Source of the DNA: Lingula anatina
Lineage: Eukaryota > Animalia > Brachiopoda
Assembly: GCA_051362555.1 (NCBI GenBank)
Contig: CM120646.1
Coordinates: 9,920,001-9,984,000, forward strand
DNA length: 64,000 bases
Direction of reading: 5' to 3'
How positions within the stretch are numbered: position 1 is the stretch's first letter; each line of letters starts with the position of its first letter. The notes under the pieces were generated by a model. The model made no database searches and was not told the origin of the DNA. It worked only from the letters and a program-made list of their open reading frames with translations. Position numbers and translations under genes: made by a program. Positions 857 to 34,565 of the stretch are shown one piece after another.

Positions 857-1612
857 TATTTATGAACAGACACAAATGTGGCTGTACATATAGCCATCAC
901 CTGTATCTGATGTCATCATTGATGTTGTCGCACACTTTCAGCGATAACACATTTGAATTTGAAATTTTGGAACTGATGAATATTCGTAAAATACAGGTGG
1001 AGTTCGAAAATCAGCATGATCAGACTATTTTTAAAGCAGCATGAGCTGATGTTAAAACTTTGAATAAAATCTGTGCATTTACAGTTAAACAGTTAAGTTC
1101 TTTTAAAATCAATGTCATGTGATTCCCAGTAGAAGTCCTGAGTAAGTAGATGAGTTGAGATATTTTGGATGCGTTGTAGTTTCTTTGTTCAGAGAACACA
1201 TTTCATGTAAAACTGTTTGACCTATTATCTTAAAACTTAAAGTACTGATAAATAGACTCAGATACAGCTTGTTCTAAAACCAGCCTGATTAAATTATTAT
1301 TATCATTTATTTATTTATTTCATTTGTTTATTCTTTTAAAGATATGCATTTTTTTATTTTATTTTATTTATTTTTTTGTGTGTGAGTGTGTGAAATGTTC
1401 ATTTTTCAAGGTGTGACTTTGAACTTCAATGGGCCTGAAGGCCTTTGCTAGTCATTTCTAGATATCCATATACTTATTATGTCATGTTATAAAAATCTGT
1501 GGTGATAATGCTGTTTAGCATAATGTATTTTATCAAAATTTCCAAAAAAAATCTATTTTGTGCATCATTTCTGCTTTTTATCTGTACATTTGACACCTCT
1601 GCTGCCTTGTTT
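857..1612 (+). mobile_element. HINE/DINE-1-like non-autonomous repeat copy
   Basis: Shares 5' (tttatgNacagac..ctgtaca), internal (acaggtcgagtttgaaaatcagc) and 3' (tctgtacatttgaca..gctgccttgt) blocks with other copies. Confidence 0.6.
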
Positions 1613-1845
1613 AAGGATACTGGTTCAATCAGTTCAATCATTATCAGTCTGTCTGTTTGACATCTGGACTACCTTAGTTTTTAAATTTTGATGTGAAAAA
1701 GGAAAATTATGATAATTTCAGATAAGACAATAAAATCTTCCATACAGATTGATTTTCAATATTTGGTCATCCACCAGTTAGGCAGACTTTCATAAACAGT
1801 TTTCATTAAACAAAATATGTCAAAAGAACACTTGTCTTCCTTTAG

Positions 1846-1947
1846 AAAAAGTTGGAAAGTGAGCTCAAGCAGATTGAAGAAAAGCATGAAGAAAAGAAAA
1901 GAAAATTCATCGAATCCAGTGAAGAATTTCATCGTGATCTGAAAAAG
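1846..1947 (+). CDS. SMARCE1: SMARCE1 exon, coiled-coil
   Basis: cctttag|AAAAAG...AAAAAG|gtatct; 34 codons. Confidence 0.92.
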
Positions 1948-4900
1948 GTATCTTACTTTCAGGTTTATACTATATTGAAGTTTGTTGTTTTGTGAATACC
2001 TTTACTGTCTTACCTAAGAAAAAATATTCAGTAGCTTTACTAGCAGAGGACATGTCAGGGGAATCTGTTGGTGATTGGAGGACTGTGCCCACCGTGCAGG
2101 GGGCTTAAAACGATCTAGAAGTAGTATGTACACTTTCTTGTGTGAAAAATTTACTAAAAATAATTTGAATCCTTATTTCCTCAGCTGTGTGAAAACAAAC
2201 CAGTGATTACTGAGGAGCAATTCACTGAGATGATAGAGAAAGCCAAGGTAGACCTCATAGAGAGGCAGAAGCAGATGGCCATTATGCAGCAACAGGAGCG
2301 AGAACGCCGTGAGAAAGAAGAGCAGGAACGAAAAGAGCGTGAAGAAGAAGAGAGACTGGAGATGGAGAAGCAGCAGGAGGCAGAGAGGAAGCAGCAAATT
2401 ACTGAGGATGAACAGCATGCAGGCAAGACTGACAGTGAGACTCCAGGGGAAGAGACTGGGGACACTGACATGCAAAAAGCACAGGTGGGTAGATACCAGG
2501 TCCGACAAAACAAATTCATTACTTGCATCAATTTGTTAAGGAAAGAATCATGGTCTGGTGAATCCATTTATTGCTAAATCTACCAATATTACTGTTGCTA
2601 GAGCCCTACACTTTTATTGTTACCATGAAAAGTGAAATACTTTTTATGTACAGATACAGATGTGAATGTACATTTAGTTGTCGCCGTGCACTTTTAGTGA
2701 TAATACGATAAGTGAAAATCAGTTTTACCTTTTGTCTTGGAACTTACACCCTGAGCTTCACAGATAACTTGACACTAACCTCTTCACTAAAGGGAATTTA
2801 GGCTTGTACAGTTGTATCTCAGCAGTTTCAGACATTTACAACTGAATAACCTAGCTAGAGTCACCTAAACAGAGCCTCCACCTCAACCTGATAAGTTAAC
2901 CAAATGAATTATGATTAGTTGGGTGTGTATGTGGAAGGTCAAAACTCCATTTGGGAATGAAAACGGCATAAGCAAAATTAATGTTTTTCATTGAAGTGAT
3001 CTTGAAAATGGTTTTTAATAGATAATAATGCAGTTACTCCTTTCAGATAAAAGGGGATACACATCCAACACAAAATGGTGCTATGGAGAAAACTTATGGT
3101 ATGGAATTACTGCATTTTTTACTCTGTTCGGTAAACAATGTATGTGTGTTGTATAAAAAGAAGCATATGTTAAATGAAGATCCCTTAAATGTTAACAAAA
3201 GAAAGGGATATTAACTTGATGTTAATTAAACATGTGAATGTATAACATTTTGATGACAAAGACTGCCTGTTGAAATGAAAGCCAGTTGGAAAACTGTCTC
3301 CCACCAAGTTTCTACAGTTAGTTTTTTATTCCAGGCCTAGAGAAGATGGAGACAGATGATGGGCCTCCAACTCTTAAGAAGATGGGTGATACTCCACTGG
3401 GCAGTCCAAACAACCAGGCTGAGAGCATGGCACAGCTGGAGCGGGTCAAATCTCCTGCAAATGGGGGCTATAAAGAAAGCACAAAATCTCCTGTGAAAGA
3501 AGGCTGGAAAGATGAGTACCCAAACCAGAAATCCCCAGGGCGAGACAGGCGGGAGGAGGAACGTTTTCCAGAGGAGAATAGACGTGATTTTGAAGATCTG
3601 AAGTCCCCAGCATCCATGGCCAGTACAGTGTCCTACACAGAGGACGATGACTATGAGGATGAAGAAGACGAGGAAGAAGACAGTGGCTGCTTGGGTAAAT
3701 CAAAGACAGCAGACAAGGAGAAAAAGAAAGAGAAAAAATCCAAGAGTAAAAATAGGAAGAATGGTGAGGATAGTTAATTAAATTTTGATTTATTTTAGCC
3801 TTGCCAATTTTAATGATTGAAATAGTTGTCTTTGCACCACTAATTAAGTGCTTAATAGTGGTAGTCAAGTGTTCAATTAAGATGATTAAATAAACACTTA
3901 AAGCTTAATATGAAGTGAGATGGATAAATTCAGTTAATGTTGCATCAGAGATTTGAAGGAGGGAAATGCTATTAATTATTCAGCTAGAAATAAAGATGGC
4001 AGATTCGTGGCATTGATTCAATGAAATGTGCTTTTATATGTACAGACACAGTGTGTCTGTACATATAGCTGTCAACTGCCTCTGTTGTGGACACCGTGCA
4101 CATTTTCATGTTATCACACAATAAGTGGAAGACCTGTTGTCTTCAAACTTACAGGGCTGCTGAAGATTGCGAAAATACAGGTCATGTTGTAAAACCAGCC
4201 TGATTAGAGCCTTTTTCCAAAAGTCATTTTTGTTTGTATGCAATACAGATAGCATATAAGTGGAAAACCAGTTGACCTTTTGTCCTTCACTTTTAGGAGT
4301 GATCAATATTAATAAAGTACAGGTCGAGTCTGAAAGCCAGCTTGATAGGATTACATTTCTTGAAGTTATGCTTTTATGCTTTTTAAAAGTTGTTAAGCAT
4401 CAAAGTTGACACAAAACCCTATTTTGGTCACTGCCACAATAATGACCATTAAAGGAAAACCATGTTACATATGATTCTCAAACTTACAGAAAAGTTTCAC
4501 AGGACTACTTTCCTAACTAACAAGAATAATTCTAACATACAGCTCAAATTGGACAACCTATTTGATAGGTTTTTTTGTGTGTGTTTGTGAAATTTTCAGA
4601 TTTGTCGTTTTGGCATTTTCAGTGTGTTAATATGAACTCCTATGGGCCTTAAACCTTATGCTATTTACTTATTCCTAATATTTGTGTTACTGGTTGTGCA
4701 TAATTAAAATTTGGTGTTAATTTTGCTGTTAAGCATAATTTATTGTTGCATCTATCATTTATGTTAAATCTGGTCAACACAATTATGCAAAGACACAAGC
4801 ACTAACAAAAACAACAATAAAAAAACTTTGGGTATATAGAAGGATGATAAGGATAGCATAGGCTGAACACAAAAGTAATGAGGAAGTACTAAATAATCTT

Positions 4901-7747
4901 AAAATAAAAAGATAATTGTTGAACACCATCAAGAAAACAAAAATTACTTTTTTGGTAGTTTCATAATAAAAGATAATTTGCAGCAGTTGTTATTAAAAGG
5001 AAAGTTAAATTGAAAACAACGAAAGGACGACCATGAACAACATGGATAGACAACATTTAAAAATCGACCATTCAAAAATATAGTGAAAACATGCAAGTGG
5101 CACGAGATCCAGTGGCATGGCGATCCATGGCAGCCAGCCTGCTGAGAATGGATGTCACCCAATGATGATTATTGCATCAAAATTGATAAAATAACCTATT
5201 TTGTACATCTTTTTTTTTTCTATTTGTCTGTACATTTGACAGCTTTGCTGCCTTGTGGTTTTAATGAGGTTGATTTTGATTAATAATTAGTACTGAAAAG
5301 TAAGAGAAAATGAATATGAGAGATAGAGATGATAAATAGAAGAGGGACCATTATTTCTCTCTATCATGTTGTGCCGCAGCATATCTCTCTACGTCTCTGC
5401 TTCCTTAAAAGGTTACCAGGCCTTTACGTGTAGTAACAAATTCACTTGATTTTTCACCCAGCTTTTTGTATGTTGCCAGCAATATCTCAGAATTTCAACC
5501 ATTCTGTTTATATTTGAAATATCTTCCATTTTTAAAACTGTCCAGAACAATATATACATATATAGTTCAAGAATTTCTGGTTGCCCTTGCTCAGCCATCT
5601 ATCAGATAATCTTTTTTCAAGGTAATTGCAACTAGTCATTACTTCAGTATTTGTGAACATGTAATGTACTGTAGCTATGTGAATGGGCCTGTTCAGAACC
5701 AGTTGATCTGCGGACAATGGATCAAAAATGGTGTGGCCCACTTGAAAGAATGCAGAGATTTAATTGCTCTGCCCCTACAAAGACAGGAGCGCCATTATTG
5801 ATCTCTGGACTAGTTTGTCCAAGGATCAACTGGTTCTGAACAAGCCTTATGGTCACTTACTCTGAGAAACCCATAACCTCAGTTTACATAATTGCACTGT
5901 GTCAGCTCTAGAGGCTAACTTGGCTGTACTGTTCACATTCAGTTTTTTGTTCATTTACAGATTCATTTTTAACAACCTATAGAATGCTTGATACATTCTA
6001 CTGGTGTGGTCTATATATGAGATGGTGCATTTATTTTTCTTTACTCATTTGAAATGAATTTATAAATTTGCTGTGAAGATGTATTTTTTTATTACATTGG
6101 ACATCCCTTTAGCTCTTTATCATTTGGGTGTTGTTGTATACCTAAGCACAGACAGTGTGCAAGTGGCTGAGAGCCTAGTAACTGTTAACATTCCTTACTT
6201 AATGTAAAACAATCTGGGTGTCTGTTAGCTAGACAGCCCAATAGAATTGTTGATGTTTATACCCTGTTCACACTATGACCATTTATCTAAATAACAAATC
6301 ATTTCGCGATTCAGATAATTGTGTGACTGCATGGGGATCTCTGTTAACCAGTTTCTTAAAATCCTGCTAGCCGGCTAGATTTCTGATAGTGATTCAAGTA
6401 ACTTACTGGAACGCAAACCTGGTTAGGACTTACTGCTCATCTGTGCAAAAATGCACTGGTATCTATGGGCACTTGTTTATTTCCTTAATAAATGCACTAA
6501 AAGCATTTGGAGGTCACCACTCACTACAACAAGGTGGAAATGTAAATTTATGTTGCTATTTGAGTTCCCAGAATATCTGGAATGTCTTTTGAGTTGCACT
6601 TGCTATAACAAATAAAAACAACAGCAAAAAGCAGAGTTCCAATGGTAGAGCTGTTAATGGTGCCACATTTTTGTATGATTGAAGTTTTCCTGTGTGGTGC
6701 ATGCATGATTGTTCTTAACAAAGAAATCCACTTGGATTTTTTTTTTCAACGTTGGATTCAATTAATTTTGCCATGTGTACACAGGGAAGCAAATTAGCTT
6801 TTTTACCAGAAATAAGAATTTGAAAAATCTGGATTTTTCCAGATGGCAGTGTGAACAGGGTATATAGAGGGGACAGCACTTAGGAGGAAAATACATTTTT
6901 TAAACAGAGATTCCTTTTAGATTCCCTTCTCTGTCAGATAGCTGAGCTATCCTAATGGTGCACATTCAGTGCAATGTCTTATTATTTTTTTTCACACATT
7001 GGTATTTTCATGATATGATTTTAACTCTCATGAGCCTGAAGCACAGAATTAAAAATTGGTGGTGTTGATCCTTTTAAGTACTGTGCTTTGAAAAAACATT
7101 TTGTTCACTCCCCATATTAATACCATAAAAGGAAAACTGCATTACTTAATATTTTCAAGCTTACAAGACAGAATCTTAGGATCAAAACACAGCTTGAGTA
7201 TGGACCCATTCAGAACAGATGATCTGCAGACTAACTGGTCTGCTGATTAAATATGACCGACCCCACTTGAAAGCAATGCCCCTTGTTCCCTAATGCTGCC
7301 TTCCACACACCCCAGGCCTGTAGGGGCACAGCAATTAAATGCATTAAATCTCAGCTCTGAGTTTTAATTACTAGGCCCCTGCAGGGCCAGCCATGTGGTA
7401 GGTAGGGAGACCATTTACTCTCAAGTGGTGTTGGCCATATTTGATCCGTGGACCAGTTAGTCTGCAGATCATCTGTTAAATGATGCCTGGTTGGGAATTT
7501 CAACCTGTATCCATCAAACAATATATGCATTTTGTATTGGTGGTTTGTCAGAATGCAATAAGAAACTGTAGACATTAAGAAACATATTTAGTTCTCTTGG
7601 GGGGTCCATGCTTGTTGTCAAATTGAAAATTTGCTGAATTTCTATGTAAGAATATTTTGAAACTATACCCATCCCACTTGTCTAGGTGTCTTTGAACCTG
7701 TTCCCTTTTTTATTTCTGTGTATATGCCATCCTCAGTACCTGGTGTC

Positions 7748-7794
<47 letters not shown>

Positions 7795-9516
7795 TCTTTG
7801 TACATTTAATTTCATTTTTGCAGGGGTATGATATCCCCTGGTGTGGATTGGGTTTTATGCAAGATACAAAATGTTCTTTTTTAATACTGAGACCTTTAAA
7901 GAAATAACTTGTATCGCACAGTGCTTTCAAACAAAAGACAACCACATTTCTACAACGTCACCCTAATTGTTATACATGTTACAGCTTCAGGCACTTCACA
8001 CTATTGGTGTGGACGTCTGTTCTATGTTGCAGAATTAGAAATGGAACAGGAATTTCTGAAAAAATTTAAAATATTGGAACAAATACTATATGAAACTGAA
8101 TTTGATCAAAATATTGATGCTTTGCCTTCAGTGTTCTGAATCAGTTACCCCTCATCCACTCATTGAAAACATTCCAAAATTGTTGAATAGATTTTGTCCT
8201 GTCAGTTATTCCTTGTCACTAGATGTCATTAAAAATTAGTATCATTTTCTTTAACTTTTGAAAGTTATACAAGTCAGACGTAACCCATGCTTATAAGTTA
8301 AAAAATATTTTAGAAATTTCATCTCCTGCGTAATTTCTCTTTTTATTATTTTTTTATATATATATATTTTATTCCTCATAATTTGTTACTGTCTTTTATA
8401 TTATGATACTTATTATTTGACAGCAATTTGCATTGTTTATGAACTTTTCTCTTGGTCCAGGCATTGCAGGTCTTAGATTGTGGACTGCTAATTAAGTAAG
8501 AACTCTAGCTGTCTGTTGTATCAGTGTTGTGGATTAGTAGAACTAGATTGATGTGGTATATGGGTGTCCTGTGTTTAGGGGTAGAGAGAAATTAGTTTTT
8601 GATTTAACAGGATGTCTCCTCTTATTTAACGTTGTATGAAATTGGGGCTATGTATGTATACTGTAATTTGTAGCATTATTTAAGTGTAGTTGATTCCATA
8701 TGCTCAAAGAAAGAGAAGTAGTTTAAATAGGAGAATGCATGAAAAGAACTTGTGAAATGAAATGATTAAATATTAGTTTTCTCTGCCACAAATAACTGGT
8801 AGGAGCTAACCATTTGAACATTTTGAACCTATAACAAATAACTTCTCTTCAGAATAAAACACTGTTGTCATGGTAACCATGCATGTGCAAAGACAACCTG
8901 ATGCTGCAGTAATCAAGATACATGTTACTGTAATACCATCATATTAGTATTATAATTGTACAGAGTATTCTATTCTTCTTTATGTTGTAGAGCAGTTACC
9001 ATTCCAGGGTAAATAAAGTCTGTATTTATGTATTTCTTATGAATTGTTAGTTAATATATGTTGTCCATGTGAAGGTAGAAAAAAAGCTTATGGTAGTTGT
9101 CCTAAAATTTCAAACAGCAAATAAATGTTCAAATTTTCTTACCACCCAGCCATTCACCATGTATCAGTTTTTGGTGTTTGAAATTTTAGAGCAATTTCCC
9201 CAATGAGTGAAAATTTTGAGAACAAAAATTGAGACTGTTTGAAATTTTAGACCACTAACCAAGCTGTCTTTCTGCACTTCCAGATGGCGACGTTCCGCGA
9301 CCCCATATTTGTGAGGTTTGCACCAAGGCATTCAAGCATCGCCACCATCTCATTGAGCATACTCGCTTGCACACAGGCGAAAAACCATACCGCTGTAACC
9401 GCTGCGGTAAGAGATTCAGTCATAGTGGATCCTATTCACAACATATGAAACATCGCTTTAAATACTGCAAAACCAAAGGGGGTGCTGGTAAAGAGGAAGA
9501 AGATGATAGTGAATAG
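1846..9516 (+). CDS. SMARCE1: SMARCE1/BAF57, 3' part (5' exons upstream of window); exons 1846-1947, 2185-2484, 3047-3098, 3335-3763, 9284-9516
   Basis: [36 protein letters not shown] matches the BAF57 coiled coil (vertebrate [36 protein letters not shown]), followed by an acidic tail; all junctions are GT-AG and phase-compatible (0,0,1,1). Confidence 0.85.
2185..2484 (+). CDS. SMARCE1: SMARCE1 exon, E/R/K/Q-rich helix
   Basis: tcctcag|CTGTGT...GCACAG|gtgggt; 100 codons, [13 protein letters not shown]... Confidence 0.88.
3047..3098 (+). CDS. SMARCE1: SMARCE1 small exon ([17 protein letters not shown])
   Basis: cctttcag|ATAAAA...TATG|gtatgg; 52 nt, converts phase 0 to the phase 1 required by the next exon. 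Confidence 0.65.
3335..3763 (+). CDS. SMARCE1: SMARCE1 exon, acidic/KSP-repeat/Lys-rich tail (read-through stop at 3775-3777)
   Basis: ttattccag|GCCTAG; ORF 3346-3777; donor AATG|gtgagg at 3763/3764. Confidence 0.8.
4033..5257 (+). mobile_element. HINE/DINE-1-like repeat copy, interrupted by unrelated sequence ~4760-5165
   Basis: Same 5', internal and 3' blocks as the 11867-12517 copy. Confidence 0.55.
5686..5846. mobile_element. Short inverted-repeat element (MITE-like); related sequence near 7200-7480 and 19200-19270
   Basis: ggcctgttcagaaccagttgatc ... gatcaactggttctgaacaagcc. Confidence 0.55.
7748..7794. repeat. (TAT)n microsatellite
   Basis: Directly visible. Confidence 0.95.
9284..9516 (+). 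CDS. Terminal exon with two ZEB/Zfh1-type C2H2 zinc fingers
   Basis: cacttccag|ATGGCG; (D)[62 protein letters not shown]...EEEDDSE*; not in the ORF track because that frame has no start codon. Confidence 0.9.
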
Positions 9517-10633
9517 TAAGCAAAGAGACAAGTCCAACAGCCATGACATAATATGCAGGACTTCCATCTGTTTACAGTACTTACCCGTCTTGCTCATCAT
9601 TTCAATTTCTTGGTGGCTGATTATGTCCCAGAAGCAACATGACCTTCACATGATCACACACAATGTTCCAGTGTCACAGGGTTCACAGTTGGCAAGAGAT
9701 GTCTCCAACCAGGCAAATGGAGACTAAGGATTGCAATGTGATTAAGTACAAAATAGAAAAAAACTACAAATCTGCAACATTGGGGAATTTCTTTTACTTA
9801 CAGACTGTCAATTATCAATTCCAAACTCAAGAATACCTTAATAATACTTTTAAAGACATGTTTGTTTGCATAAGCCGAGTGAATATTTCCCCTGTATTAT
9901 CAAAAATGAAAAAAAAAAATGCAATTTGAATTTGAGAACTTGGCTGGCCCTTCAAATGCTTAATGCATGGTGGAAGTTGTTTATAAGCTGTAAATTTTGG
10001 CCAATTTGGGATGATTTCATGCTTGAGTATATATTTAAAGATGTTACTTATATTCAAGAGTTTTAAGTATTTTTCGAGCTAAAATTCGCCAAGTAGAGTA
10101 ATTTACAAGCCCCCCTCACCCCCATGCTGTAATATATTAGAAATCTCGCACTGGCAGAAGAATCTCAGTGTTGTCATCTCCACATCTCTAGCCCTGGCAT
10201 TAACACTGGGAAGGCTTTCATGTAATCTCATTACTATATATGGAAAAATGCCTCGCACTAGTATTAGGCCTCTCGTTTTTAGTAAAAAAAAAAAACTGAA
10301 CCAAGACAGCTGCAGCTACGTGTCTTAACAAGAGTAAGTCTTCATCTGTGAACAGGTGGATTGAAGAATAGGGCTGGCTGATCTGGCTCAGCACAGTAGG
10401 AAAAGTGAACTTCCACATTCATTTGCTTGAGTATATTTCATTTAAAATTTATTGTTCTTAACTGGTAGATAGAGAATTCTTGTTGTTTAGGCATGTGGAG
10501 CTTTTTCTCCTCCCTCACTCATCAGATCTCATGTGTCAGGGAATGGCATAATTTAGACAATACTTGTTCTTTTTATATACAGACATGGTCTGGATATACT
10601 CTAATCTCCAGTCTTTAATGATGTCGTCTGAAG

Positions 10634-10678
<45 letters not shown>

Positions 10679-11689
10679 CACCATCCTGTATTCCTCCCAA
10701 CTCCACAAACCATCTGGTAGTGTTCTATTAATAACTGTCAAGGTCTTTCCCCACCCCCAGTATTTCCCTCTTCTCTTCAAACTATTTGGTAGTGTTTTAT
10801 TCATAATTAATTGTCAAGATCTCCCCCCTCCTCTTTAAACCTTCTAAGAGTGTTCTGTTCTCTAGCACATGCATTGCATCAGGTCATGTTTTGAAAGGCA
10901 GCTCATGACGTGCAAATGTTTAGCGGTTTAAGATTTTTTTTATATCTGTATACTGACCAGCTTTGCTGCATTGTTATTCCTCTTTTACTATTTATTATTT
11001 TTTGCCTAAACTTTTTTAAAGTCAGTCTCATTGTTTATGCATCATTTTATCAGAACAAAGGCATTTAATGTTTCATAAACATAACTTTGTATCAGGCACA
11101 TGTACTTTTTGTAAGGCAACTGTCTTACATTAGGGCATAATATTTGATATTGCACTGCAAACATGCTGTCACCAGCAACACTAGACCCATAAAGGGTTCC
11201 CAGAGTCAGTGGTGGATGTCAGGTGTGATAGGTGAAGGGCACTATAGTCACAAACTAGACAGACAAGTTGTGCTGGAAGTAGAAGTGTTTATCATAATGC
11301 ATTCATATTATGTTAATTAAGTTTGCACAACCCTGTCACATGCAGTCACTTAACCTATACCAAACAGTGTGTCTCTCACCATGAATTGAGCAGAAATTTA
11401 GTACCTTTAAAGGTTGAAGCATTCCAAGCCAGGATTTAATGGATTTGGCCAGGGTAAACAGCATTTTTTTCCTGACTTACCCACCTTTTTCACATTTGCC
11501 ATAACTCTGTAAGTTTAGGAAAAAGCAAAAGATCAAAACCAGAATGAAAGCATAGGTTTTCTAGATACACTATTCATTCCATAACTCGACTTCCAGATAT
11601 TGCTAGCCTTTTATGCTGGATATGACACAAGAACCCATGTTATTTTCAATCTGTGTCAAGATGGCTGACCACCAAGGTTGGACAGGGGG

Positions 11690-11732
<43 letters not shown>

Positions 11733-11866
11733 CATATTGATTAAGACCATCTATATGTTTTAAAAGTTATAATTGTCGACATATAAGTTCAACAAGAAGC
11801 AATGCATGCACTCTTAATTTTTTCAAAATACTGACTTGGATTGCTTTAAACTGTATAGATATGCTC

Positions 11867-12240
11867 TTTTTTTATGTACAGACAGATGTGGCTGTACAAA
11901 GCTGTCACATGCATCTGTTGTTGCTGTCGTCATCGTCCTTGCTGTGCACTTTCACTGTTATAGCGATAAGTGGTATACCATTTGACTTTTTGTCTTCAAA
12001 CTTCCAGAACTAATGAATATTCACAAAATACAGGTCAAGTTTGAAAATCAGCTTGAGTGGACAATTTTTCCAAAGTTGTACTGTTTTATTCCAACATATT
12101 TATCCACTGTTATACAATAAAATGAAAACCATGTTCTATTTTTCTCTAAAACTTGCAGGACAGTAGACTTATTCAGAGGACTAATATACAGGTCAAGTTC
12201 CAAAACTATCTTGATTGGTTTAGTTTTGAGAAGTTATGCT

Positions 12241-12288
<48 letters not shown>

Positions 12289-12517
12289 GGATTTTCCTCA
12301 GAGACGGTTCTTAGGTATGTTAACAGTTTCATTATTGATATAATTAAAAATTGATTATGTAAAAAAGTTGGTAATTCTGTTATTGTGTAGTGTATAATAA
12401 TGTGTCAACAATGGAAAAATGCCATTTAGCATAATATAATGTTGCTTTTAAATTGACAAAAAATATTCAATTTTCCTGCTTTCTGTCTGTACATTTGACA
12501 GCTTTGCTGCTTTGTTT
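11867..12517 (+). mobile_element. HINE/DINE-1-like repeat, apparently full-length copy
   Basis: T-run insertion site, subterminal inverted repeat atgtacagac/gtctgtacat, 3' stem-loop cagc-ttt-gctg, no target-site duplication. Confidence 0.65.
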
Positions 12518-15500
12518 CCCAAAGTGGTTGCAATTACTGTTTACACGTAGTTTAATTTGAGTTAACTGTAAATCTTGCTGATAAAGGTGGTATATCCCTG
12601 CATGTGGTATCAGAGACACTAAGAAATGATTGCACAGCATTATTTTTTACTTAAAGGCTAAATAGCATAAGTCAAATAGGATGTTTTGGTCATTGAATCT
12701 TCACCTTTCACTTGACCAAGGTTCATAGGTTGTAGACCAAAATGTCATGCTTGACTCGTGTTATTTAGTCTCTAAGTAAAGTATAATTCTCATTTATCAT
12801 CCTATTTAGAGACCATGAAAAGCCTTTTGTAGTACACTAAGAACTGCTTTGCTTATTGTACATTTCCTTTTGTATTGAAAAGCAATATTGACTCTGTTAA
12901 TTGCTTGCCATTATTCAATACCGCATGTTACTGTTAAGTACATTTTTTCTGCAGAGTCTGTAGGGAACGGCACCATTGTTAAAAAAATGAACCAATTTAT
13001 AGCCCTTTTAGGGCATGTATCTGCAATATAAGCAATAGGCAATTTCTTTCTTGTTGAATGATATATACTTTTTTATGTAGGCAAATTTAGCCATGATATG
13101 GAAGTTGAAAGAAGTCCATGGCACTCAGAGGCCAAATAGAGCAACACTTTTCCCAAGATGGAAACATTAAATCCGAGCCTGTTTAGAGGAAACCTTTGAT
13201 TATATCCTCCACCAACAGGTGAAGGGAATATGGCCAATGAAGTCTGTCAATCTAGTTTTATAAGTTATCAGCTGTTCTCACATAAAAATGTTTCTAGATA
13301 TCATGGAGTGTAAAATGATACTAAATTTTTGGATGCATTGTTGTTCCCAATCACACCAAGTGGTGGCAGCATCGAGTCCTGTTGATGTCAAAGGAAAAAC
13401 ATGAAAACATGGAGAGACCCAATGAATTGCACTTATATGACAAAAATTAGCTGGCAATTACTGGATGTCTTTGTGCACCCTCTGTTGAATGTTTGATATT
13501 AAGTTTAGCAGGTAAATGTGATGGGAAAAGCAAGTTAAAACAAGTGTTTTGTGGCAGGCTTTGTTTTCTCCTCCATCCAATTTTTTTTATCTTTTGTTAA
13601 GCAGGGAGAGAAAGAGTAAAGATGTGAAGTGCAAGATAAAAACATTGTTGTGGCCCTTGGCTGCAAAGGGCAGTTACTGACCTAAACAAATGGGTGGTTT
13701 GTAAGCATCAAATGATGTGTGCACCTTAAAAAAAAAAAGACTTTTTGTGCTTATATTACTCGTTTGTTCAGAGCAAGACATTAATTTAAGATTTATTTTC
13801 AACTTTTTCTCACCATTGTTGAAGGAGCAAGATTAAATTTGGGTATCATTGAGTTAGTTATGACAAATAAGATTGTCTTTCGTTAAAAGGTTGGTTTGAT
13901 AAATGTTTAGAGGGGATCCTTGCTGAGACTGGTATGCTCTTTTTGAAATAAATATACATGCTTTTTTGTGGAGGTACGTGTTTGCACTTTATGAGTGCCT
14001 TCAGGTAAATACAGAATACAGGCATAGATAAAAACTATTTGATATATGCACCAAAGAGAATCAGAAAAGTTGCCATACATTTATATTTTTCTCATAAAAT
14101 AATAACTATTTTTACTACTTAGGTCTTATTTTGTCTAAGATGTTTCTTATGGTAGTTGCTTAAGTAGTTATATTTATTATGCATAATATTAAATCCCATT
14201 GATGACAAAAAAATGAAGGTGCTGCACAGAAATATATTTGTCATATTTATAATAAGATTTAGCAGACATTTATCTGAAAAATAACAGGTCACCTTTTGAA
14301 TAGAGCCATGCACCACTGATGTGAATACGATTTCATGATGGTGATGATATTGACTTTTATAAAAGCAGCTGTATTTGCTTTAAAGATTATTAAGTATCTG
14401 GATGTAATTTGCAATTTGTAAGTTACTGCCATGTAATATTCCAAAACACAAAACACAAAACATTATTTTTGTCTGTCTCTGCTTGTTTTTGCCTCAGCAT
14501 ATTGTATGGTCAATCCGGGAGAACTTTGGATTGGCGAATAATCTGCTTTACCAACATCAACTTTAAATACATCCTTACTACATAGTCACCTAGACTGTAA
14601 GCTATTTTAGTTCCAATTTTGATGAATTTTTACCAGTCACCAGTGATAATTTTTTTTTTTTTTTTTAATTATGTTGTTTCTGTTGAATTCAAAATTCTAC
14701 TGTATATAATTGTTCTCCTGTCTTCAGGAGTTGTCTGCAACATTTACGATACTCTGTATCTTTGAATGCATGATATTTTGATACTTAAATCATGGCAAGT
14801 GTATTTTATTAATGCAAAGCTCTGTTTTTAAAATAGAGCAGTGTGATACTTTGTTCATTAAGCAAAACCATTTGTTAAATGACAGTCTTTACACTGGACA
14901 AACCCCTACCCTGTGTTTTCTCACAGTGTATATATGAGTATCTGTGCAAGGTGATGGGGATTTTTGCAATTGAAATATGCAATTTGAACTTTCATAAATG
15001 TTTTAATAATGTTAGGTCCCCTGCAGTGTGCATATATGATGTCAACTTTGATTCAATCCCATTTTCTTGTGTGTGCATTTATCCCCCTCTCCTGAGGTCG
15101 TCACGTGCTGCACTCCCCAGGGAAATGTGAAATTTGCATCAATGTCCATTTTGCTGATTTGTGTCAGTTTAATGGTGCAAAAAGTGGGAACAACCCCCTT
15201 TAGCTGGTGCTAATGGTGTTCTTGACAAAAGCAGTTGTAAAGAAACTGCACATGCACACAAAGAAAAATTTGGTTTTGATACAACTTTATATGACTGATT
15301 AAGGGTTGTTGAATACATATCATGTTTAAATAAGAAACAGTTGTTACACTTGGCTTTTTAAGACTGAAATGTGCAATATGTTTAGGAGTGTAGAAGAATG
15401 TCCTGTGGAAGAGCAGGACTGGCCATCAGTTCCATCTATTTTACTGTGAAGTATTTGGCTTATTTTATCATCAGACAAGCCCCACTTACCAGACCAGTTG

Positions 15501-15826: not shown

Positions 15827-16363
15827 AGCCCCCTTTTCACTGGACGGCGTCCTTTCTGCGTCCCTGCTGCGTTCAAAAAAAATGGATCGTTTCATGAATT
15901 TTAGGGGAAAAACAATCGGAGGCTGATATGAAACCACTGTCGCCCTTAGCATTCCTGTCTAGTGAAAAATACCTCAGCACGGCCCCGTTTGAGAGTGAAA
16001 AAAAATATTGTTCTACGTGCCGAACGCTGGACGATCCTTCAGTTTTCATTCTGCAACCAAAGCGATGCTTGTGCCTCCTTTCTACGATCGCGGCGATGCT
16101 TGTGCGTCCTCTCTGCGACCACGGCGATGCTTGTGCATCCTTTCTGCGTCCATTGAGCGACCATCCTCCATCGCGTTCTCTCTGCGATTGTTTTGAACGT
16201 GCTCAAAACTTCGCGGCGTCCATGGCGTCCTCGGCGATGCTTAAACGTTCTTTGTGCGACCTTGGCAATCACTGTGCGTTCTTTGAGCGTCCGACGGCAT
16301 CCTGGCCAGTTTCATGGTCGCACAAAGGACGCAGAAAGGACGCCGTCCCGTGTAAAGGGGGTT
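15827..16363. mobile_element. PIF/Harbinger-type MITE
   Basis: ~37-bp TIRs agcccccttttcactggacggcgtcctttctgcgtcc / ggacgcagaaaggacgccgtcccgtgtaaagggggtt, TTA on both sides; internal gcgatgcttgtgc repeats. Confidence 0.8.
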
Positions 16364-17012
16364 TTAGTAGTACTCACTCGCGCACTTCTGTCTTTCTTAT
16401 GGTAGTAAAGGTCACAGAGAGTAGGCGTCATTTTGACTGCTCCTATTGGCTGGCCAACTCACCATATTGAGAAGAAAAAAGTTCTAGCCTAAATGTTCAA
16501 ATCATGACATTCGCAAGGAATATGAAATTAACAGACCCAAAAGTAATTAGTTTGTGACATTTGGAATTCATAACACTCCCAATATTCAACACTTGCAGAA
16601 ATGAAATAGAATGTTCACTTCTAAACGTATTTTCCAATCAGACTTTACGGACATAAAATAAAGACGACATGCCAAGTAATATACCAAATTAATCCCTCGA
16701 TCGACAAAAAGTAATTTTAAAACTGAACCTTTAAAACTTCAAATTTCTGTTCGGAAATTGACCTATTTATCTGCCCCTCAAGTTTGTAAAAGTATGCTTA
16801 ATGACGTATTACTGCGCGTGCATTGCATAACTATCACTCTCACTTCCATATAAGTACAGGTATGTAGTTGCGCGCAAAACTGCATACTTCATCAAACGAT
16901 AGTTACTGTTGAGGGATATATTCGTTGTAGCACAGAAAGAGCACAAATTATCCGTCCAAATAACATTTTTCGGGAAATGAGAAACGATGTCCTTTGGTAT
17001 TTCTCAAAGTTA

Positions 17013-26700: not shown

Positions 26701-29700
26701 CAAAGGACAGTGTGAGGAAGCCACCAGCTTGGGGTCATGGTGCCCGCAACAGTTTGGACAGAGGTAAGGGTGATGCAAGGAAGAGTTGAGTTCTCAAGGA
26801 GAGCTGAAACACATTTTCTTTTGTCGCCGCTGTATGATTATATGATGTTATTCATAAGGACATTTTTGTCTTCGCATACTTGCACTATATACATCGGGCA
26901 TTTAATGCTAATTGGAATGAGTGACATACCCTGATTAATATATTCTGCCACATTACGGCGTACATTGTTGCCAAGCTGTTATTTTTCACAACTTTGCTCT
27001 CTTCCTTGGCTTAGCACGATTAAAGCCTAGATTACATTTGCTGTTGGTGCCTTCCGATGAAATCGTATACGTAACGGCACGAACCTTTTCAGTCTCGATG
27101 GAGTTGCCTTATGTGCGGCCTCCTTGAAGATCGATGCGTTATCGGTACATCAGGCAAACAACCAGTCACTTCTACAATCCCTCTGAGTGACTACTCTACA
27201 CTAAAATCCAGCTAAGTGATGACATTTATTCCACACAAAAAATGTCTAATCTCTGGTCACAAAAGAAAGATGCACTGAATACGTTAGAGGCACATCTTTG
27301 AATATTTAGTAAAAATAAAAAAAGTTATCTGTGATCCGGTATTTCATAGATAATGTTGCGAAAAATGCCGGTGTGATTAGGCATACGGGCTTACAATTGA
27401 AAAATTTTGTTAAAAGTTTAAGCATGACAAAATCGCAGAGGCTACGGAGGCTGTGAATCCTCACGATTTCGTACTATTTCACCGCCTGCCTCCGCACATA
27501 CGACGCACGAAAAAGGGCTTCATGGGCAGTGTACCAGCACCGCACGGACATCGTACTCTCTGACCACAGGGTGTGCTAGTAGTCTGTTACAAAAATGTTG
27601 AATGGCACAGTGGAGTTTTGTATACTATTTTAGAAGCCCCTGATATCATCGCATGACAAATGTAATCTAGGCTTTAATAACGGAAGTTGCGATCAATTGG
27701 GGTCATGCCGATACTCCCCCGCACCGTTACTCCCCCGCACCGATACTCCCCCTTAGTAAATTTTTGCATTATGCACATCGATACGACCCCACACCGATAG
27801 ATCCCCGCATCGATAAACCCCCTGTAAAATTGCCGTTATACGCACACCGTTACTCCCCCGCACCGATACTCCCCCGCGTTGTTGTTTCCCCGCACCGTTA
27901 CTCCCCCGCACCGATACTCCCCCGCATCATTACTCCCCCTATGCAATTTTGACGAAACTGAGGATCGAGTAACAGAGTCAACCCTCCATTTAATTATACA
28001 GGTTAGGGTCAGTCTAGGTAAGTGGATCAAAATCTTCGACCCGTTTAAGTCCAAATTTTGCGGAGAATCTCATGTACCACGCAAGTCCTTTATGCGAAAT
28101 TTCGAGTTCGCACGTATGTAAGCACGTACAGAGGATATTGAACATTTCCAATAGATTCTACGAATAATCTGCGAACAGCGAGGCCGTAAGCGTAATTTGC
28201 TCCCTTTCTAAGGAGTTTGCGATTGGTTTGCAAGTGAGACTTCCCTGGTTCAAGATGCACGCCGCAAGAAATGAAGGAGAAAGAGCCCTTTGCGTGTTGA
28301 GTACGGCGCACGCCCTCACATCTTTATAACGAACAAAATCGAAAACACGACAGGACTGCGAGTATAAAAGGCGTGCTCACGACGCATGCTCGTGTCTCTA
28401 CAATTTCGTTGTGCAACAATTTTCAAAATTTTTGAATTTTGCTCAGTTCAGATTCTAATCTAATTCAGATTCAAAAGACTAGGGAAAGAAGCTTAAAGAG
28501 CAGAAAAGAAGGTTGGAGGAAAAAGACAGAAAACGAAGCGCTTTAGCACTTCTTTTTTTATTACTTAATAATTTTACGAATTCATCGTTGCCTGAAAAAA
28601 AAAGACATAGCTGCGTTATCTTAGATTAAAAATAACTTTGCCTTAAGTTAATAAAAAAATCAAAAAATAAATAAATAAATAAATAAAAGGCCGTACAATA
28701 TATATACAGTAACTACTGAGTAAAGTAGGAGAACGAAATTAATTTTGCAAAAACATTTCTCAAAAATCACAAGGAAGAGCTGTAGACCTACGCACTGTCA
28801 AGCTGCACACTAAGTCTGAGATTGACTTCGTGTAACGTTCTTTATTTTTCCCAATATATTTCGAATAAAATTAGTCAACTCTAGGTCCCAAGAGGGTGGT
28901 GCATCTTGAAAAAAAAAGCATTATAGAAAGTGTTGTAAATTATGAATGGGGTTTACAAAGCCAAGGGAATCTATGCCTTGGGGGAGTAGTGTTTTTGCGG
29001 AGTATCGGTACGCGGGAGTATCAGTGCGGGGGAGTATCGGTGCGGGGATGTAAAGAAGCGGGGGAGTATCGGTGCGAGGGAGTATCGGTGCGGGGGAGTA
29101 TCGGTGCGGGGATGTAAAGAAGTGGGGGAGTATCGGTGCGGGGGAGTATCGGTGCGGGGGAGTATAGGTACGTAACCGATCAATTGATGACTCTCTGAAG
29201 TAATATCCGGCATCGCTGCAGCAACAAATGTCTATAAATTACTGTTTGTGTGACAATTTTCTGTCCCATGCATAGCAGTTAATGTATCAAAATTTCACGT
29301 GTTTCTTTTATTCATAACAGTATCCATAGGCATACCCTTGCATTTTGACATTGCTTCACTTCAGGTATTACTACAACGCGGCGGCGCAGAAATGCATGGC
29401 CTTCTACTACTTGGGTTGCGGCGGTACCCGAAACAACTTTAAAACTAAAAGCGAGTGTGAATCAACCTGTTTGTCGAAATCAACCACCGACAGTGGTTTA
29501 GGTAATCAGTTTTCTTGGTTTTGTTGTAGAAATAACAAGACATTAATCCAATATCCTACCTTATATCCCACTTGTACTATAAAATCCCCTGTTTCATATA
29601 CATGTACACCTTACGATTAAAATTACACACTGGACTTTACAACATAACTTTAACCATTCGGATAAGGCGTTTTCTACCTCGAGTCCCAGAAGGGACATCA

Positions 29701-32443
29701 GATTTGAGTCTTTTTACAACATTTCGTTCTGATTATGGTTCTTAATGGAGTATTAAAGGCGCCTTGTAAAAGCTATTGAATCTGATCTAAAGATAGGCAA
29801 AATAACGTAATTAATGTTTAAGTTCTATTTGTTCAGTGAATAGATGTTATGTAATTTATGACCACTTTCTAAAGATGGTCGTTTGCTTTTAAGATGTTTG
29901 TAGGCCTACATGTTAACCCACAGGATGCACATTGATATTTTGATATTCATATTTCAGAGTGTTCGCTGCCTGCTGATAGTGGTACTTGCTATGGTTATAG
30001 GACAAGGTACTATTACAACCCGGGCAGTAAACAATGCCAGTCGTTTGTTTATGGAGGCTGTGGGGGAAACGCAAACAATTTCGCCAGTCTGGCAACTTGT
30101 CAAGCTAAGTGCGTCACCAAAAGTGGTAAGGAATGCACTAATAACAATTAACATTTCATCGTATAATATCTATAATCTGACGATATTCATGAGGGTAAGA
30201 GGATGTAAAGAAGGGTGTACCCACGAAGTTGGGAAGGAGGCCTAGGGGGCAAACGATGGTGAGGTAGATCAGTATTTGAAGTCAATCTTATCAACATTTA
30301 TCTTTTGAATAAAGTGGAGGTGTTTTGCCATTAATTGCGAGATGACGACATGGATGAGAGGTGGTGGTAGTCTGTGGGTACGAGAAGTATGCTGAGTATT
30401 GGAAGGGGTGGGGCAAGGGAGGTTACTGTGACTATCATCACTTCTATAGAAGTATTTGTAGTGTGTTGCTATGGGGAATAATTAGATGATTCGATGGGGG
30501 GGGGGGTCGTTGATCGAGAGCAGGATAGAGGCTTAAATAGGACAGTAGATGACTGAGCACAATGGGGTTACTACTTTGCTGTGGGAGCAACAGTGAACAG
30601 TGAACACTGGCGAAATAAATAATAATCTGTTAGTCATTAATAATCATGTAAGACCCTCATTTTGTCGCGCTTTTCTGCATTCTTACTGATAGAGGTTTTC
30701 ATAAGAGCCTTGGCTCTATCCTTGTGAGACATCGAGGAAGAATATTTAAGTTATACTTTTGTAGGAATTTTAAATACACGCTGTGGCTGGTAATCGTGTT
30801 TCAGAGTGTTCGCTGCCTGCTGATCGCGGCCCTTGCTATGGATATATGACCAGGTACCGCTACAACACGGCCTCTAAGCAATGCCAGTCGTTCCTCTATG
30901 GTGGCTGTGGGGGGAACGCAAACAATTTCGTCAGCATGGCAGCTTGTCAAGCAAAGTGCGGAGTTGCACAGACCAGTGAGTTTTTGGTGCTTATGCTGTC
31001 AATTTGGAAAAAATGAGTAAAGCGTGTGAAAGGGTATGCCATTGTCTGTGGGTCATTTAACTGCCTGCCTCTCTTCGTCCATGATATGACCTGTGCTGTC
31101 GTACAAGAAGGATAGGTGACGATATATACATGTAGCACAGCACAGTTCTACTAAAATCTAGTCTTCTACTGACCTAAATATCCAGCTTCAGTTCTGATGT
31201 AAGATGTGAAATATAGATTGTACATTTTTGTACAAGTATTGGATACAAGTATTGCGACTAGTATTGCAACATAGTGAGCAGATTGAAAGCTACGGCAAAT
31301 GTAGGCGAACTTCGTTTCCTACCCTAGCTCTAGAGTAGTCAATGCCTTTTTTTAAAAATAGGCAATATATTATATCGTATCATTCTATTCTACATTAAAC
31401 ATGAGTATAAGTAAACTTTGATATTTGCTTACAATCAGGATATTGAAGAAGATGCAGTTTAAAAGCTTATTTATGTTGGCTGAGTGATTAATTTGGTTTA
31501 TCCTTTGGATTTTGAGTCATATAAAACTGCTTATTGTGATTTATATGCGTTACAGGGAATCAATGCTCGCTTGTTATGTAACTATAAATCTAAAATGAGG
31601 TTTATCTTTATGTACGCATTAAACATTTTACCAGCAATAAATGCCCCTCCCCCCCTTTTCCAGATGATCCCACCAAACAATGTATAAATGTTACAATTCA
31701 GATGCACATGATATGTGCATTTTTGTCCATAAAGTATGCACCTTGATTGTGCGACCATTTGCTATGTCTAAATTGAAAATACAAGCGTTGCCATTTTATA
31801 AAATGGCTGTCAATTGAAACAAGACCGCAGATGGACGGATGATTGATAGTGGGCTAAACGACGTTATGAGTGAACATATATGTATATGCAATCCCCGCGT
31901 TGTCTCTGAAACGCCGATTTTTGATCACTACTCAAACACAGTATAACAACGGGTGGAATACACGGGGTAAACTAGGCCAAAACGAATTGGCTAATTCATA
32001 AATGCAAAGTAGCGCTGGCAATTTTTTCTCTTAGGCAAATCACTACTTTTTCATCACTTTTTTCTGAAATGGTGTAAATTTTACTTAAACAAGTTAAATC
32101 AACCCTACTGGTATTTTGTTTAGGCAATTTAAGTCAGTTAAAGTATTTGGCTAAATTAGAGAATGTAAGGTGTGGATTTGATATTCTCATCAACATACTT
32201 AATGATAGGTACTGATGTGAGCTACTTTGGCGGGAGAGGACAGTTTACCCCACTTCAGGGCAACGCTGCAGTATTTGGAATACCCCGCTGGCAGCCGACG
32301 GGGGCAGTTTCTATTGGAGGACCAATCAAATTGCAACCGGCACGGACTTGCGCAGTAAGGCTGTAATCATGCAATACAATGCAATGGTCAGATACGCTAA
32401 ACCGTATAATTGATTAGCTAAGAAATGTATCGGTGCTATTGTT

Positions 32444-32480
<37 letters not shown>

Positions 32481-34521
32481 ACGTTTCAGATCTCAAAAGT
32501 CCCGTAGTTGCAATCAACTCAAACTGCATATGTTATCTTCTGAAAGGCTGACTGTATTATCGTTGCAGACGATGGACTGCCCCTTTGGTCATACGTGTGT
32601 GGAAAAAGACGTCCAGTGCATCCGGGCACCGTGTCCCAAAGTGTCAGAATGCATTCTTTCTTCACCTGAAGCTGAGACCAGCTCAGAGACAGGTACATTA
32701 TGCACTGCTCATTGTTCATTGACACATTGCAGTATAGTAAAGAATTCAATTACGGCATTCACTATGGCTAACCGATAGTGTCTTCACAATGCGATTTCTT
32801 GTTTTATTCGTAAGTGAAAGAAAATAAAGGCTATTTTTTTCTAATCTTTTAGGCACGGAAGAGCCACCTTCAGGTAATATAAATTCACTTATGCGTCAAT
32901 TAATTGCAAATGAATATAGGAATTTATTTTTCGAGCAATTTTTCTTGGGTATGAGAAACTGGTTTTCCTTCAGGTAAAATTCAATTTGGCGCAAACATTT
33001 CTGGGTGCTTTTAAGAGAAAACGACCAGAAAAAGTATCCGTTGATTAATTATGTTAGTTTTTATTCATAGTCCCACTGCACTCGAAAGTTTGCCATTGTT
33101 TCTGACTCCACTCTCCTCTAAATCTCACTTGATTTTTGGGCACATCGCGAGACTTTGGGCTATCTCGGATGCACCCTATTGCCCCTAAGCATTCGTTTAA
33201 TTCTCTGCATATCACTCAGTCTAGGATTACTTGTAAGTGCACTTGACAGAGTAATCGACCATCTGTCTTTTCTTTTCTCTTTTTTTTTCTTTTATACAAC
33301 CAGAATGCACTGGTGGACAGGTTTTGCAGAGGTGTGTCTCCCCATGTAAGCAGCCTACTTGTAGGGACCAGCCGCAGATCCACCTGTGGTCGTGCCTCAA
33401 GAAATGTGGGGAGCTAAAGTGCGCATGTCCTCCGGAGAAACCTCACTTTGATTCAGGAGTGTGCAAGAGCTCTGAGGAGTGTGGAAGGGAAAGAGAAGAA
33501 AACCAAGCGCCGACAGGTTGATTTATATATTTTTCTTGCCCTGAGAACTCCAACTGCCCAAGCTAAACAATCCCCGTTCTTTTTGCAGTTCGTGCCCAGA
33601 CCGCTGCTTTTGACTTTCATAAACTCTACTATTCAGCTACCCGTACGTTTAGAAACAATTTGTTTACAGGTGATGAAAAGTTATTTCTATCCGTATAAAA
33701 AAGACAGGGGCTTTCTATATATAATCAATTAACATATCTCCAGTAGATTCAAATAACATACTTTTCGCCTGCTCCAGAAAACCTGAAACCAGCAGTGAAG
33801 TCTAGCTTAACGCCCAAACAGACAGGCATACCACACCCTCTTGTACTTCCACGGACTTCCACGGACTTTATTTAGGCCTCTTTTTTTTTCAGAATGCCCC
33901 CCGGGTCAAGTGTACAAGGAGTGTCCTTTCATCTGCAAACCTACATGTGAGGACCCTAATCCAGAGTGTACAGACACCACGTGCCCACCCCCAGGGTGCG
34001 AGTGCTCTCAGTTCACGCCTATCTTCTACAACAATAAGTGCATCTCGGCTGCAGAATGTCCATCTCCAGCAGAAAGAACGGATGTCTCCACCGAGACTGC
34101 TGACCCAATCCCTGTCAAGAAGCCGATAGCATCTTCAAATGGTAAAATACTCTCTTGATTGCCAGAGAAATAAAATGTACATTAGAAGGAAGAAAGTCAC
34201 TGTAGCAAAACGGCACACTGAGCATATAAAGGTGAAATGCCTGTGTGTTGGTTAAAATCAGTTGTCTGCAGTAATATTTGGAAGCACGCCTCTAAATTTG
34301 ATTTTTTTCCTTTATTTACCATTGACAGACCTTGGTTTTTGACCAACTTTATAGAATAGCACAAGCCGGAAATCTTGAAATTTCGGCAGATTTTGTAGTT
34401 TTAGATGTTCATTAATTAAAAAGTTTTCGGGTTAATGAAAGTTAAACAAACAGTTCATTTTCTAATCAAACACTTCCCATGACAAGGAAGTGAAATACGA
34501 CATGCCCTTGGCGATAAGGGG

Positions 34522-34565
<44 letters not shown>

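What the first reader, a model, noticed from the sequence alone, without database searches (positions are those of the whole stretch)
3335..9516. SMARCE1/BAF57 appears fused to a ZEB/Zfh1 DNA-binding zinc-finger pair
Seen: the BAF57 tail exon has a phase-1 donor (AATG|gtgagg, 3763), and 5.5 kb later an intact phase-1 terminal exon encodes [58 protein letters not shown] found no other ZEB exon (homeodomain, other fingers) in between. Known: this closely matches the last two fingers of the ZEB1/ZEB2/Zfh1/ZAG-1 C-terminal cluster, which bind CACCT(G) E-boxes; canonical BAF57 has only a non-sequence-specific HMG box. Inference: exon shuffling gave a core SWI/SNF subunit its own sequence-specific module, which could target the remodeller directly to ZEB sites.
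Basis: partly seen in the sequence, partly recalled or inferred. Interest (0 to 1): 0.9.

Follow-up and report, generated by a model that had tools for sequence, protein, structure and literature searches.

The report
Chromatin remodeller with built-in ZEB fingers
In a brachiopod, a ribbon worm, many clams and some snails, gene models of a core part of the SWI/SNF chromatin-opening machine (BAF57) end in an optional pair of zinc fingers likely copied from the gene regulator ZEB, which would let the machine find ZEB-type DNA sites without a separate guide protein.

Summary
Five + strand exons (1846-9516, including a 52-base exon at 3047-3098) translate letter for letter into residues 257-627 of RefSeq XP_013404563.1, Lingula anatina SMARCE1/BAF57, which has an HMG box and ends in two ZEB-type fingers. 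The same HMG-plus-finger design occurs in a nemertean, in bivalves and in heterobranch snails; the fingers are 72% identical across phyla while the linker is 12%. They group with ZEB's C-terminal pair, keep its recognition residues, and several of these species also have a full ZEB. The fingers are optional: a skippable cassette in bivalves, and in Lingula most reads run through the 3763 donor to a stop. The 3763-9284 junction was not among the RNA joints shown here. Likely mechanism, untested: splicing yields a BAF pool with a tethered CACCT(G) reader. One origin or several is unresolved. No paper describing it turned up in six searches. New variant of a known kind; interest 0.7.

The parts
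1846..1947 (+). BAF57 coding exon, residues 257-290 (coiled coil)
   Evidence: exact match to P0097; RNA joint 1947>2185 in 4 of 4 runs
2185..2484 (+). BAF57 coding exon, residues 291-390 (end of coiled coil, charged helix)
   Evidence: RNA joints on both sides
3047..3098 (+). 52-base BAF57 exon, residues 391-407; shifts phase 0 to phase 1
   Evidence: RNA joints 2484>3047 and 3098>3335; needed for the exact match to P0097
3335..3763 (+). BAF57 exon, residues 408-550: acidic, then lysine-rich, predicted disordered linker; ends at the phase-1 donor
   Evidence: pLDDT under 50 over most of 367-553
3764..3777 (+). read-through of the donor: four codons and a TAA stop, giving a finger-less 554-residue isoform
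   Evidence: sequence; read depth at five sites in 3816-3910 is 0.65-0.85 of that at five exon sites in 4 of 4 runs
3764..9283 (+). 5.5-kb intron of the finger isoform, covered by + strand RNA as the likely long 3' UTR of the finger-less isoform; no other ZEB or BAF57 exon found
9284..9516 (+). terminal coding exon, residues 551-627 and stop; phase-1 acceptor; no in-frame Met before the fingers
9310..9468 (+). ZEB-type finger pair (C2H2 plus a likely C2HC finger), residues 560-612, homologous to ZEB C-terminal fingers 2-3
   Evidence: Pfam zf-C2H2; tree; two beta-beta-alpha units at pLDDT 80-86

Best explanation
This is the 3' half of the Lingula SMARCE1/BAF57 gene, whose annotated long isoform ends in two zinc fingers likely copied from the C-terminal cluster of ZEB; that isoform likely assembles into BAF/PBAF and would tether the remodeller to CACCT(G)-type E-box half-sites. 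Shown: the exon chain, its match to the RefSeq protein, the same design in a nemertean, bivalves and heterobranch snails, kept recognition residues, and finger-less isoforms. Steps 2-4 are untested.
For: Exact translation to XP_013404563.1, which aligns to human SMARCE1 at E 2e-109. 22 of the 120 listed relatives (query included) carry the ZEB-type pair behind a BAF57 core. Identity to Lingula over 15 fused proteins: finger pair 72%, HMG 75%, linker 12%. Three records of a 702-residue fused protein lie on contigs of 2453-3142 bases, too short for introns, and three of a 639-residue form lacking just the 63-residue finger cassette on contigs of 2026-2230 bases. Recognition positions: finger 2 H-G-S-Q in 19 of 19 fused pairs, finger 1 H-H-E at +2, +3, +6 in 19 of 19, position -1 His in 9 of 19 including Lingula; all 24 ZEB C pairs are H-H-H-E / H-G-S-Q. 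All 19 fall on the C-pair side of a 100/99 branch. Two fingers per cluster are the ones crucial for binding in vitro (PMC8304685). ZEB1 recruits BRG1 in human cells (PMC11895388, PMC11927373), so the two proteins already cooperate. ZEB and BAF57 records share one chromosome-scale contig in 7 of 9 species compared.
Against: The 3763>9284 joint was not among the 15 of 36 joints shown, and read-through depth is 0.65-0.85 of exon depth, so the finger isoform looks minor in these four runs. Integrity of both ZEB clusters is crucial for correct binding in vitro (PMC8304685), so one pair may bind weakly. Position -1 of finger 1 is Leu in 5 and Gln in 5 of 19 pairs, and Tegillarca models carry an unrelated pair (36% identity), so the target is not fixed. 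Many lophotrochozoan models lack fingers (Owenia, Capitella, Tubulanus, several gastropods). The fused pairs are not one clade in either tree (4-5 changes), though one clade is not rejected (AU p 0.155).
Confidence: 0.55

Rival explanations
1. The long isoform is real and sits in BAF, but the two fingers do not select sites on their own: they add weak DNA affinity, or bind a partner protein or RNA, and specificity still comes from separate transcription factors.
For: A single pair reads only a 5-6 base half-site and full ZEB needs both clusters in vitro (PMC8304685). YAP binds ZEB1 regions that take in both finger clusters (PMC11927373), so these fingers can be protein surfaces. Position -1 varies between clades and Tegillarca has a different pair.
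Against: Seven of the eight recognition positions are invariant in 19 of 19 fused pairs across three phyla while the flanks diverge, which is what selection on base reading predicts (positions recalled from the Zif268 paradigm).
Confidence: 0.27
2. The long isoform works outside BAF, as a free HMG-plus-finger factor that competes with ZEB for single E-box half-sites.
For: It has two DNA-binding modules of its own; ZEB itself was proposed to act by site occupancy (PMC8304685).
Against: The assembly core and coiled coil are intact and as conserved in fused proteins as the HMG box (75% and 60%), and the fingers are far from them on a predicted disordered linker.
Confidence: 0.09
3. In Lingula the finger exon is rarely or never spliced in and lies in the 3' region as a relic; the functional protein is the 554-residue form.
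For: High read-through depth and no displayed 3763>9284 joint.
Against: The exon has an intact frame, acceptor and all ligands and recognition residues; the RefSeq model uses it; in run X7 the exon's bin (7.3) is deeper than both flanks (4.0, 4.0); 21 joints were not shown and the tool drops human-like reads.
Confidence: 0.07
4. Assembly misjoin or annotation error joins a BAF57 gene to a stray ZEB end.
For: The Lingula pair sits among vertebrate ZEB pairs in both trees, on a long branch; no Lingula ZEB was seen among the 120 rows listed of 634.
Against: The same join occurs in independent annotations of three phyla and on intron-less contigs; RNA covers every bin from 3335 to 9940; the nearest vertebrate pair is only 80% identical over 59 columns.
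Confidence: 0.02

Closest known systems
SMARCE1/BAF57 (human; Drosophila Bap111, name recalled)
   Same: HMG box, conserved core and coiled coil; aligns to human SMARCE1 over residues 57-419 at E 2e-109; core tree follows the animal groups. Splice isoforms of SMARCE1 are known (PMC9839376).
   Different: Human BAF57 ends in a Glu-rich tail at residue 411 (PMC6862534); here a longer linker leads to an optional finger pair. Of 49 BAF57-like representatives, 47 have no finger and the 2 that do are molluscan.
ZEB1/ZEB2/Zfh1/ZAG-1
   Same: Finger pair 76% identical on average to ZEB C-terminal fingers 2-3 against 61% to the N-terminal pair; same recognition residues in Lingula.
   Different: No N-terminal cluster, no first C-terminal finger, no homeodomain: one hand, not two. 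Full ZEB genes exist separately in Lineus, Mytilus, Pinctada, Sinanodonta, Dreissena, Mya, Mercenaria, Ruditapes, Lymnaea and Elysia.
Yeast RSC subunits Rsc3/Rsc30
   Same: Works like them if the inference holds: a sequence-reading module built into a SWI/SNF-family remodeller (PMC9839376).
   Different: Zn-cluster domains in dedicated subunits of yeast RSC, not C2H2 fingers fused to a core subunit; not described as splice-optional in the passages read.
BCL11A/BCL11B and the ARID2 finger in mammalian BAF/PBAF
   Same: C2H2-finger proteins counted as BAF subunits (PMC6862534); ARID2 carries a C2H2 domain (PMC9839376).
   Different: Separate polypeptides or native domains, not a copy of another factor's fingers grafted on BAF57; another review says BAF and PBAF carry no stable transcription-factor subunit (PMC9839376).
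ZEB1-BRG1 recruitment in EMT
   Same: ZEB specificity coupled to SWI/SNF (PMC11895388, PMC11927373).
   Different: A non-covalent contact in human cells; here the link would be covalent and set by splicing.

Membership tests
SMARCE1/BAF57 | HMG box | tested here: met
   Pfam HMG_box at 82-149 of P0097, above cut-off; it lies upstream of the window
SMARCE1/BAF57 | conserved core and coiled coil homologous to human SMARCE1 | tested here: met
   E 2e-109 to 6lth_Q; helices 206-293 in the model; core tree
SMARCE1/BAF57 | incorporation into BAF/PBAF | not testable with these tools
   needs pull-down or mass spectrometry
ZEB/Zfh1 | two separated finger clusters (4 + 3) | tested here: not met
   only one pair in P0097 and in the window
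ZEB/Zfh1 | central homeodomain | tested here: not met
   no homeodomain in P0097; no such match in the window for 12 ZEB queries
ZEB/Zfh1 | C-terminal fingers 2-3 with their recognition residues | tested here: met
   H-H-H-E / H-G-S-Q as in 24 of 24 ZEB C pairs; C-pair side of a 100/99 branch
ZEB/Zfh1 | binding to CACCT(G) | not testable with these tools
   inferred from residues only; no ZEB finger structure appeared among the best 60 of 234 PDB hits
Rsc3/Rsc30-type built-in reader | Zn-cluster DNA-binding domain | tested here: not met
   Pfam finds only HMG and C2H2 families in P0097; the likeness is functional, not membership

The most novel reading that the evidence does not exclude
Lophotrochozoans hard-wired the ZEB-SWI/SNF link before brachiopods, nemerteans and molluscs split: a splice switch in BAF57 creates a BAF subtype with its own E-box reader, retuned in some clades (Leu or Gln at position -1, a different pair in ark clams), so that these animals target chromatin remodelling by choosing an exon rather than by expressing a transcription factor.
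Probability: 0.4. Interest if true: 0.87.

Novelty: new variant of a known kind. Interest (0 to 1): 0.7.

Why it matters
How animal BAF finds its sites is an open question, and one review states that BAF and PBAF carry no stable transcription-factor subunit (PMC9839376). Here a core subunit carries a copied, conserved and splice-optional reader in three phyla, sitting unremarked in automatic annotations. It gives a natural experiment (same gene with and without fingers, same species with a full ZEB) for testing whether tethering a reader to BAF is enough to direct remodelling, and a rare gene-fusion marker for the disputed relations among molluscs, brachiopods, nemerteans and annelids.

Tried and rejected
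No whole genome is held, so a Lingula ZEB gene could not be sought by tblastn; none was recognisable among the 120 of 634 rows. No RNA holder was listed by index; four same-label raw-read runs were laid. A focused look at the acceptor gave no result, so the junction stays unseen here. A metagenome scan with P0138 returned one irrelevant weak locus. Stand-alone finger gene rejected: the open frame 9259-9513 has no Met before the fingers. Extra ZEB exons rejected; the weak hit at 14782-14934 lacks zinc ligands. My first exon boundary for the small exon was off by one, corrected. The finger trees dropped Tegillarca (unrelated pair) and, through a strict pattern, both pairs of four heteroconch ZEBs and the C pairs of Haliotis, Owenia and Adineta; these have Phe for Tyr at a core position and otherwise the ZEB residues. 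One clade of fused fingers neither found nor rejected. The dip in depth on the finger exon was not used as evidence, as the tool drops human-like reads. The binomial value for shared chromosomes was discarded: species are not independent. No earlier findings of the scan. Two papers were not held. No complex prediction was run.
Full report
Observation. The window starts inside a + strand gene. Exons at 1846-1947, 2185-2484, 3047-3098, 3335-3763 and 9284-9516 have GT-AG ends and matching phases and translate, with one stop at the end, into exactly residues 257-627 of P0097. P0097 was found as a 100% match to the finger exon and is RefSeq XP_013404563.1, Lingula anatina SMARCE1. It has an HMG box at 82-149, upstream of the window, and C2H2 fingers at its end, and aligns to human SMARCE1 at E 2e-109. 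All 12 ZEB proteins used as tblastn queries hit only 9277-9492, a profile of the pair has one hit above threshold in six frames, and the finger frame has no Met before the fingers, so this is neither the end of a full ZEB in the window nor a gene of its own.

RNA in this species. Four same-label runs were laid on 1500-12500. The three upstream joints are shown in 4 of 4 runs. The joint 3763>9284 is not among the 15 of 36 joints displayed; whether it is among the 21 hidden is unknown. Depth at five sites just past the donor (3816-3910) is 0.65, 0.73, 0.85 and 0.65 of the depth at five sites in the exon, on the + strand in the two stranded runs, whereas the bin 2968-3334 has about the depth that the 52-base exon alone explains (7.9 in X1; my arithmetic). 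So most transcripts in these samples read through the donor to the stop at 3775-3777, giving a 554-residue finger-less protein. In X7 the finger exon's bin (7.3) exceeds both flanks (4.0). Low depth on the exon in other runs cannot be used, because the tool drops human-like reads. What evidence underlies the RefSeq model I could not see.

Other species. Of 120 listed relatives (of 1157 hits; ranking favours fused forms, so this is no frequency), 27 carry fingers: 22 the ZEB-type pair (query included), 4 unionid isoforms with only the first finger, and 1 an unrelated pair. The ESM Atlas cluster (59 members, commonest Mollusca) has zf-C2H2 on 32%. Among 49 BAF57-like proteins in the best 150 representatives, 47 have no finger and 2 do, both molluscan. 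Models from Owenia, Capitella, Tubulanus, Patella, Batillaria (partial), arthropods and vertebrates have none; for lophotrochozoans this may be loss or an unannotated isoform. Identity to Lingula in 15 fused proteins is 72% in the pair, 75% in the HMG box and 12% in the linker. In 7 of 8 isoform pairs compared, the longer form differs by a block holding both fingers; the eighth (Lineus) differs elsewhere. One cluster has a 702-residue form on contigs of 2453-3142 bases and a 639-residue form on contigs of 2026-2230 bases; these lengths leave no room for introns, so I infer spliced transcripts of both forms, though I did not see the contigs.

Source of the fingers. The Lingula pair is on average 76% identical to ZEB C-terminal pairs and 61% to N-terminal pairs, and all 19 fused pairs lie on the C side of a 100/99 branch in two models. 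At positions -1, 2, 3, 6 (recalled as base-reading from Zif268), finger 2 is H-G-S-Q in 19 of 19 and finger 1 is x-H-H-E in 19 of 19, with x His in 9 (Lingula, Lineus, pteriomorph bivalves), Leu in 5 and Gln in 5; all 24 ZEB C pairs have His. The second finger keeps a late Cys in 16 of 16 aligned proteins but loses the second His in 7, so it is likely C2HC. Full ZEB proteins with homeodomain exist in the same genera, so this is a copy, not a broken ZEB. ZEB and BAF57 records share a chromosome-scale contig in Lineus, Tubulanus, Owenia, Mya, Mercenaria, Sinanodonta and the beetle Hypothenemus, and not in Pinctada or Patella (7 of 9), which fits an old linkage and a copy within one chromosome. 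The fused pairs form four groups rather than one clade (4-5 changes, 59-61 columns, long branches), and the Lingula pair falls among vertebrate ZEBs; holding them together is not rejected (AU p 0.155). On the BAF57 core tree the finger state needs 6 changes, at least 3 forced. One early gain with losses is the simplest reading since the same two fingers sit at the same place, but repeated gain or conversion from ZEB is not excluded.

Mechanism. AlphaFold2 on 16 sequences (mean pLDDT 61, pTM 0.30) gives a confident HMG box and long helices, a low-confidence stretch over about 367-553, and two beta-beta-alpha fingers at pLDDT 80-86: a reader on a long tether. ZEB binds two separated CACCT(G) boxes, two fingers per cluster being crucial, and both clusters are needed for correct binding in vitro (PMC8304685, passages); a ZEB2 mutant in NZF3/CZF3 is used as the DNA-binding mutant (PMC6240308, passage). 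ZEB1 recruits BRG1 (PMC11895388 and PMC11927373, passages; the primary papers were not read). [quoted passage not shown] I conclude that the long isoform most likely gives a BAF pool a one-handed E-box reader whose weak affinity is made up by the complex's other DNA contacts, with splicing as the switch (0.55). Rivals: fingers as an affinity or protein-binding aid (0.27), action outside BAF (0.09), a relic in Lingula (0.07), artefact (0.02).

Novelty. The fused proteins are in RefSeq and UniRef under the plain name SMARCE1. Six searches for a description found none: 15 of 16 papers listed, titles and abstract starts only; 2 papers, unrelated; 0; 0; 15 of 243 listed, none holding SMARCE1; 0. 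The library lacks most subscription papers, and I opened no supplements, where gene-fusion lists could mention it. Both parts are known and built-in readers have precedent, so this is a new variant of a known kind; its spread over three phyla, its splice control and its testability put interest at 0.7.

Noticed in passing
   Followed up: partly
P0125-P0128 (Potamilus, Sinanodonta): Unionid isoforms keep only the first finger, splicing out right after its linker starts, which points to an intron between the two fingers in these mussels.
   Followed up: no
records: ZEB and BAF57 lie on the same chromosome-scale contig in 7 of 9 species compared, including a beetle and an annelid without the fusion: a likely ancient linkage.
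   Followed up: partly
window 48573-48984: A 36-base unit repeated 11.4 times (97% matches) covers what looks like an exon end and its GT donor in a DHHC palmitoyltransferase gene (DHHC domain at 46342-46740), giving a row of alternative in-frame donors.
   Followed up: no
window 29330-37450: Exons with Kunitz and TIL cysteine-rich domains on the + strand, a likely secreted multi-domain protease inhibitor.
   Followed up: no
window 35349-36136, - strand: Broken frames that look like a LINE reverse-transcriptase tail (recalled likeness; Pfam gave only a weak ALKBH8_N hit), inside an intron of the Kunitz/TIL gene.
   Followed up: no
window 14782-14934: Weak match to the finger profile (E 0.049) without zinc ligands, 5 kb downstream of the finger exon; treated as chance, a decayed copy is not excluded.
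   Followed up: partly
window 15876-16467: Long open frames on both strands around a 31-base repeat, no Pfam match for the + frame.
   Followed up: no
runs X7, X8 on window 1500-12500: These runs differ from the window at many fixed sites in the exons whereas X1 and X4 do not, suggesting a divergent population under the same species label.
   Followed up: no
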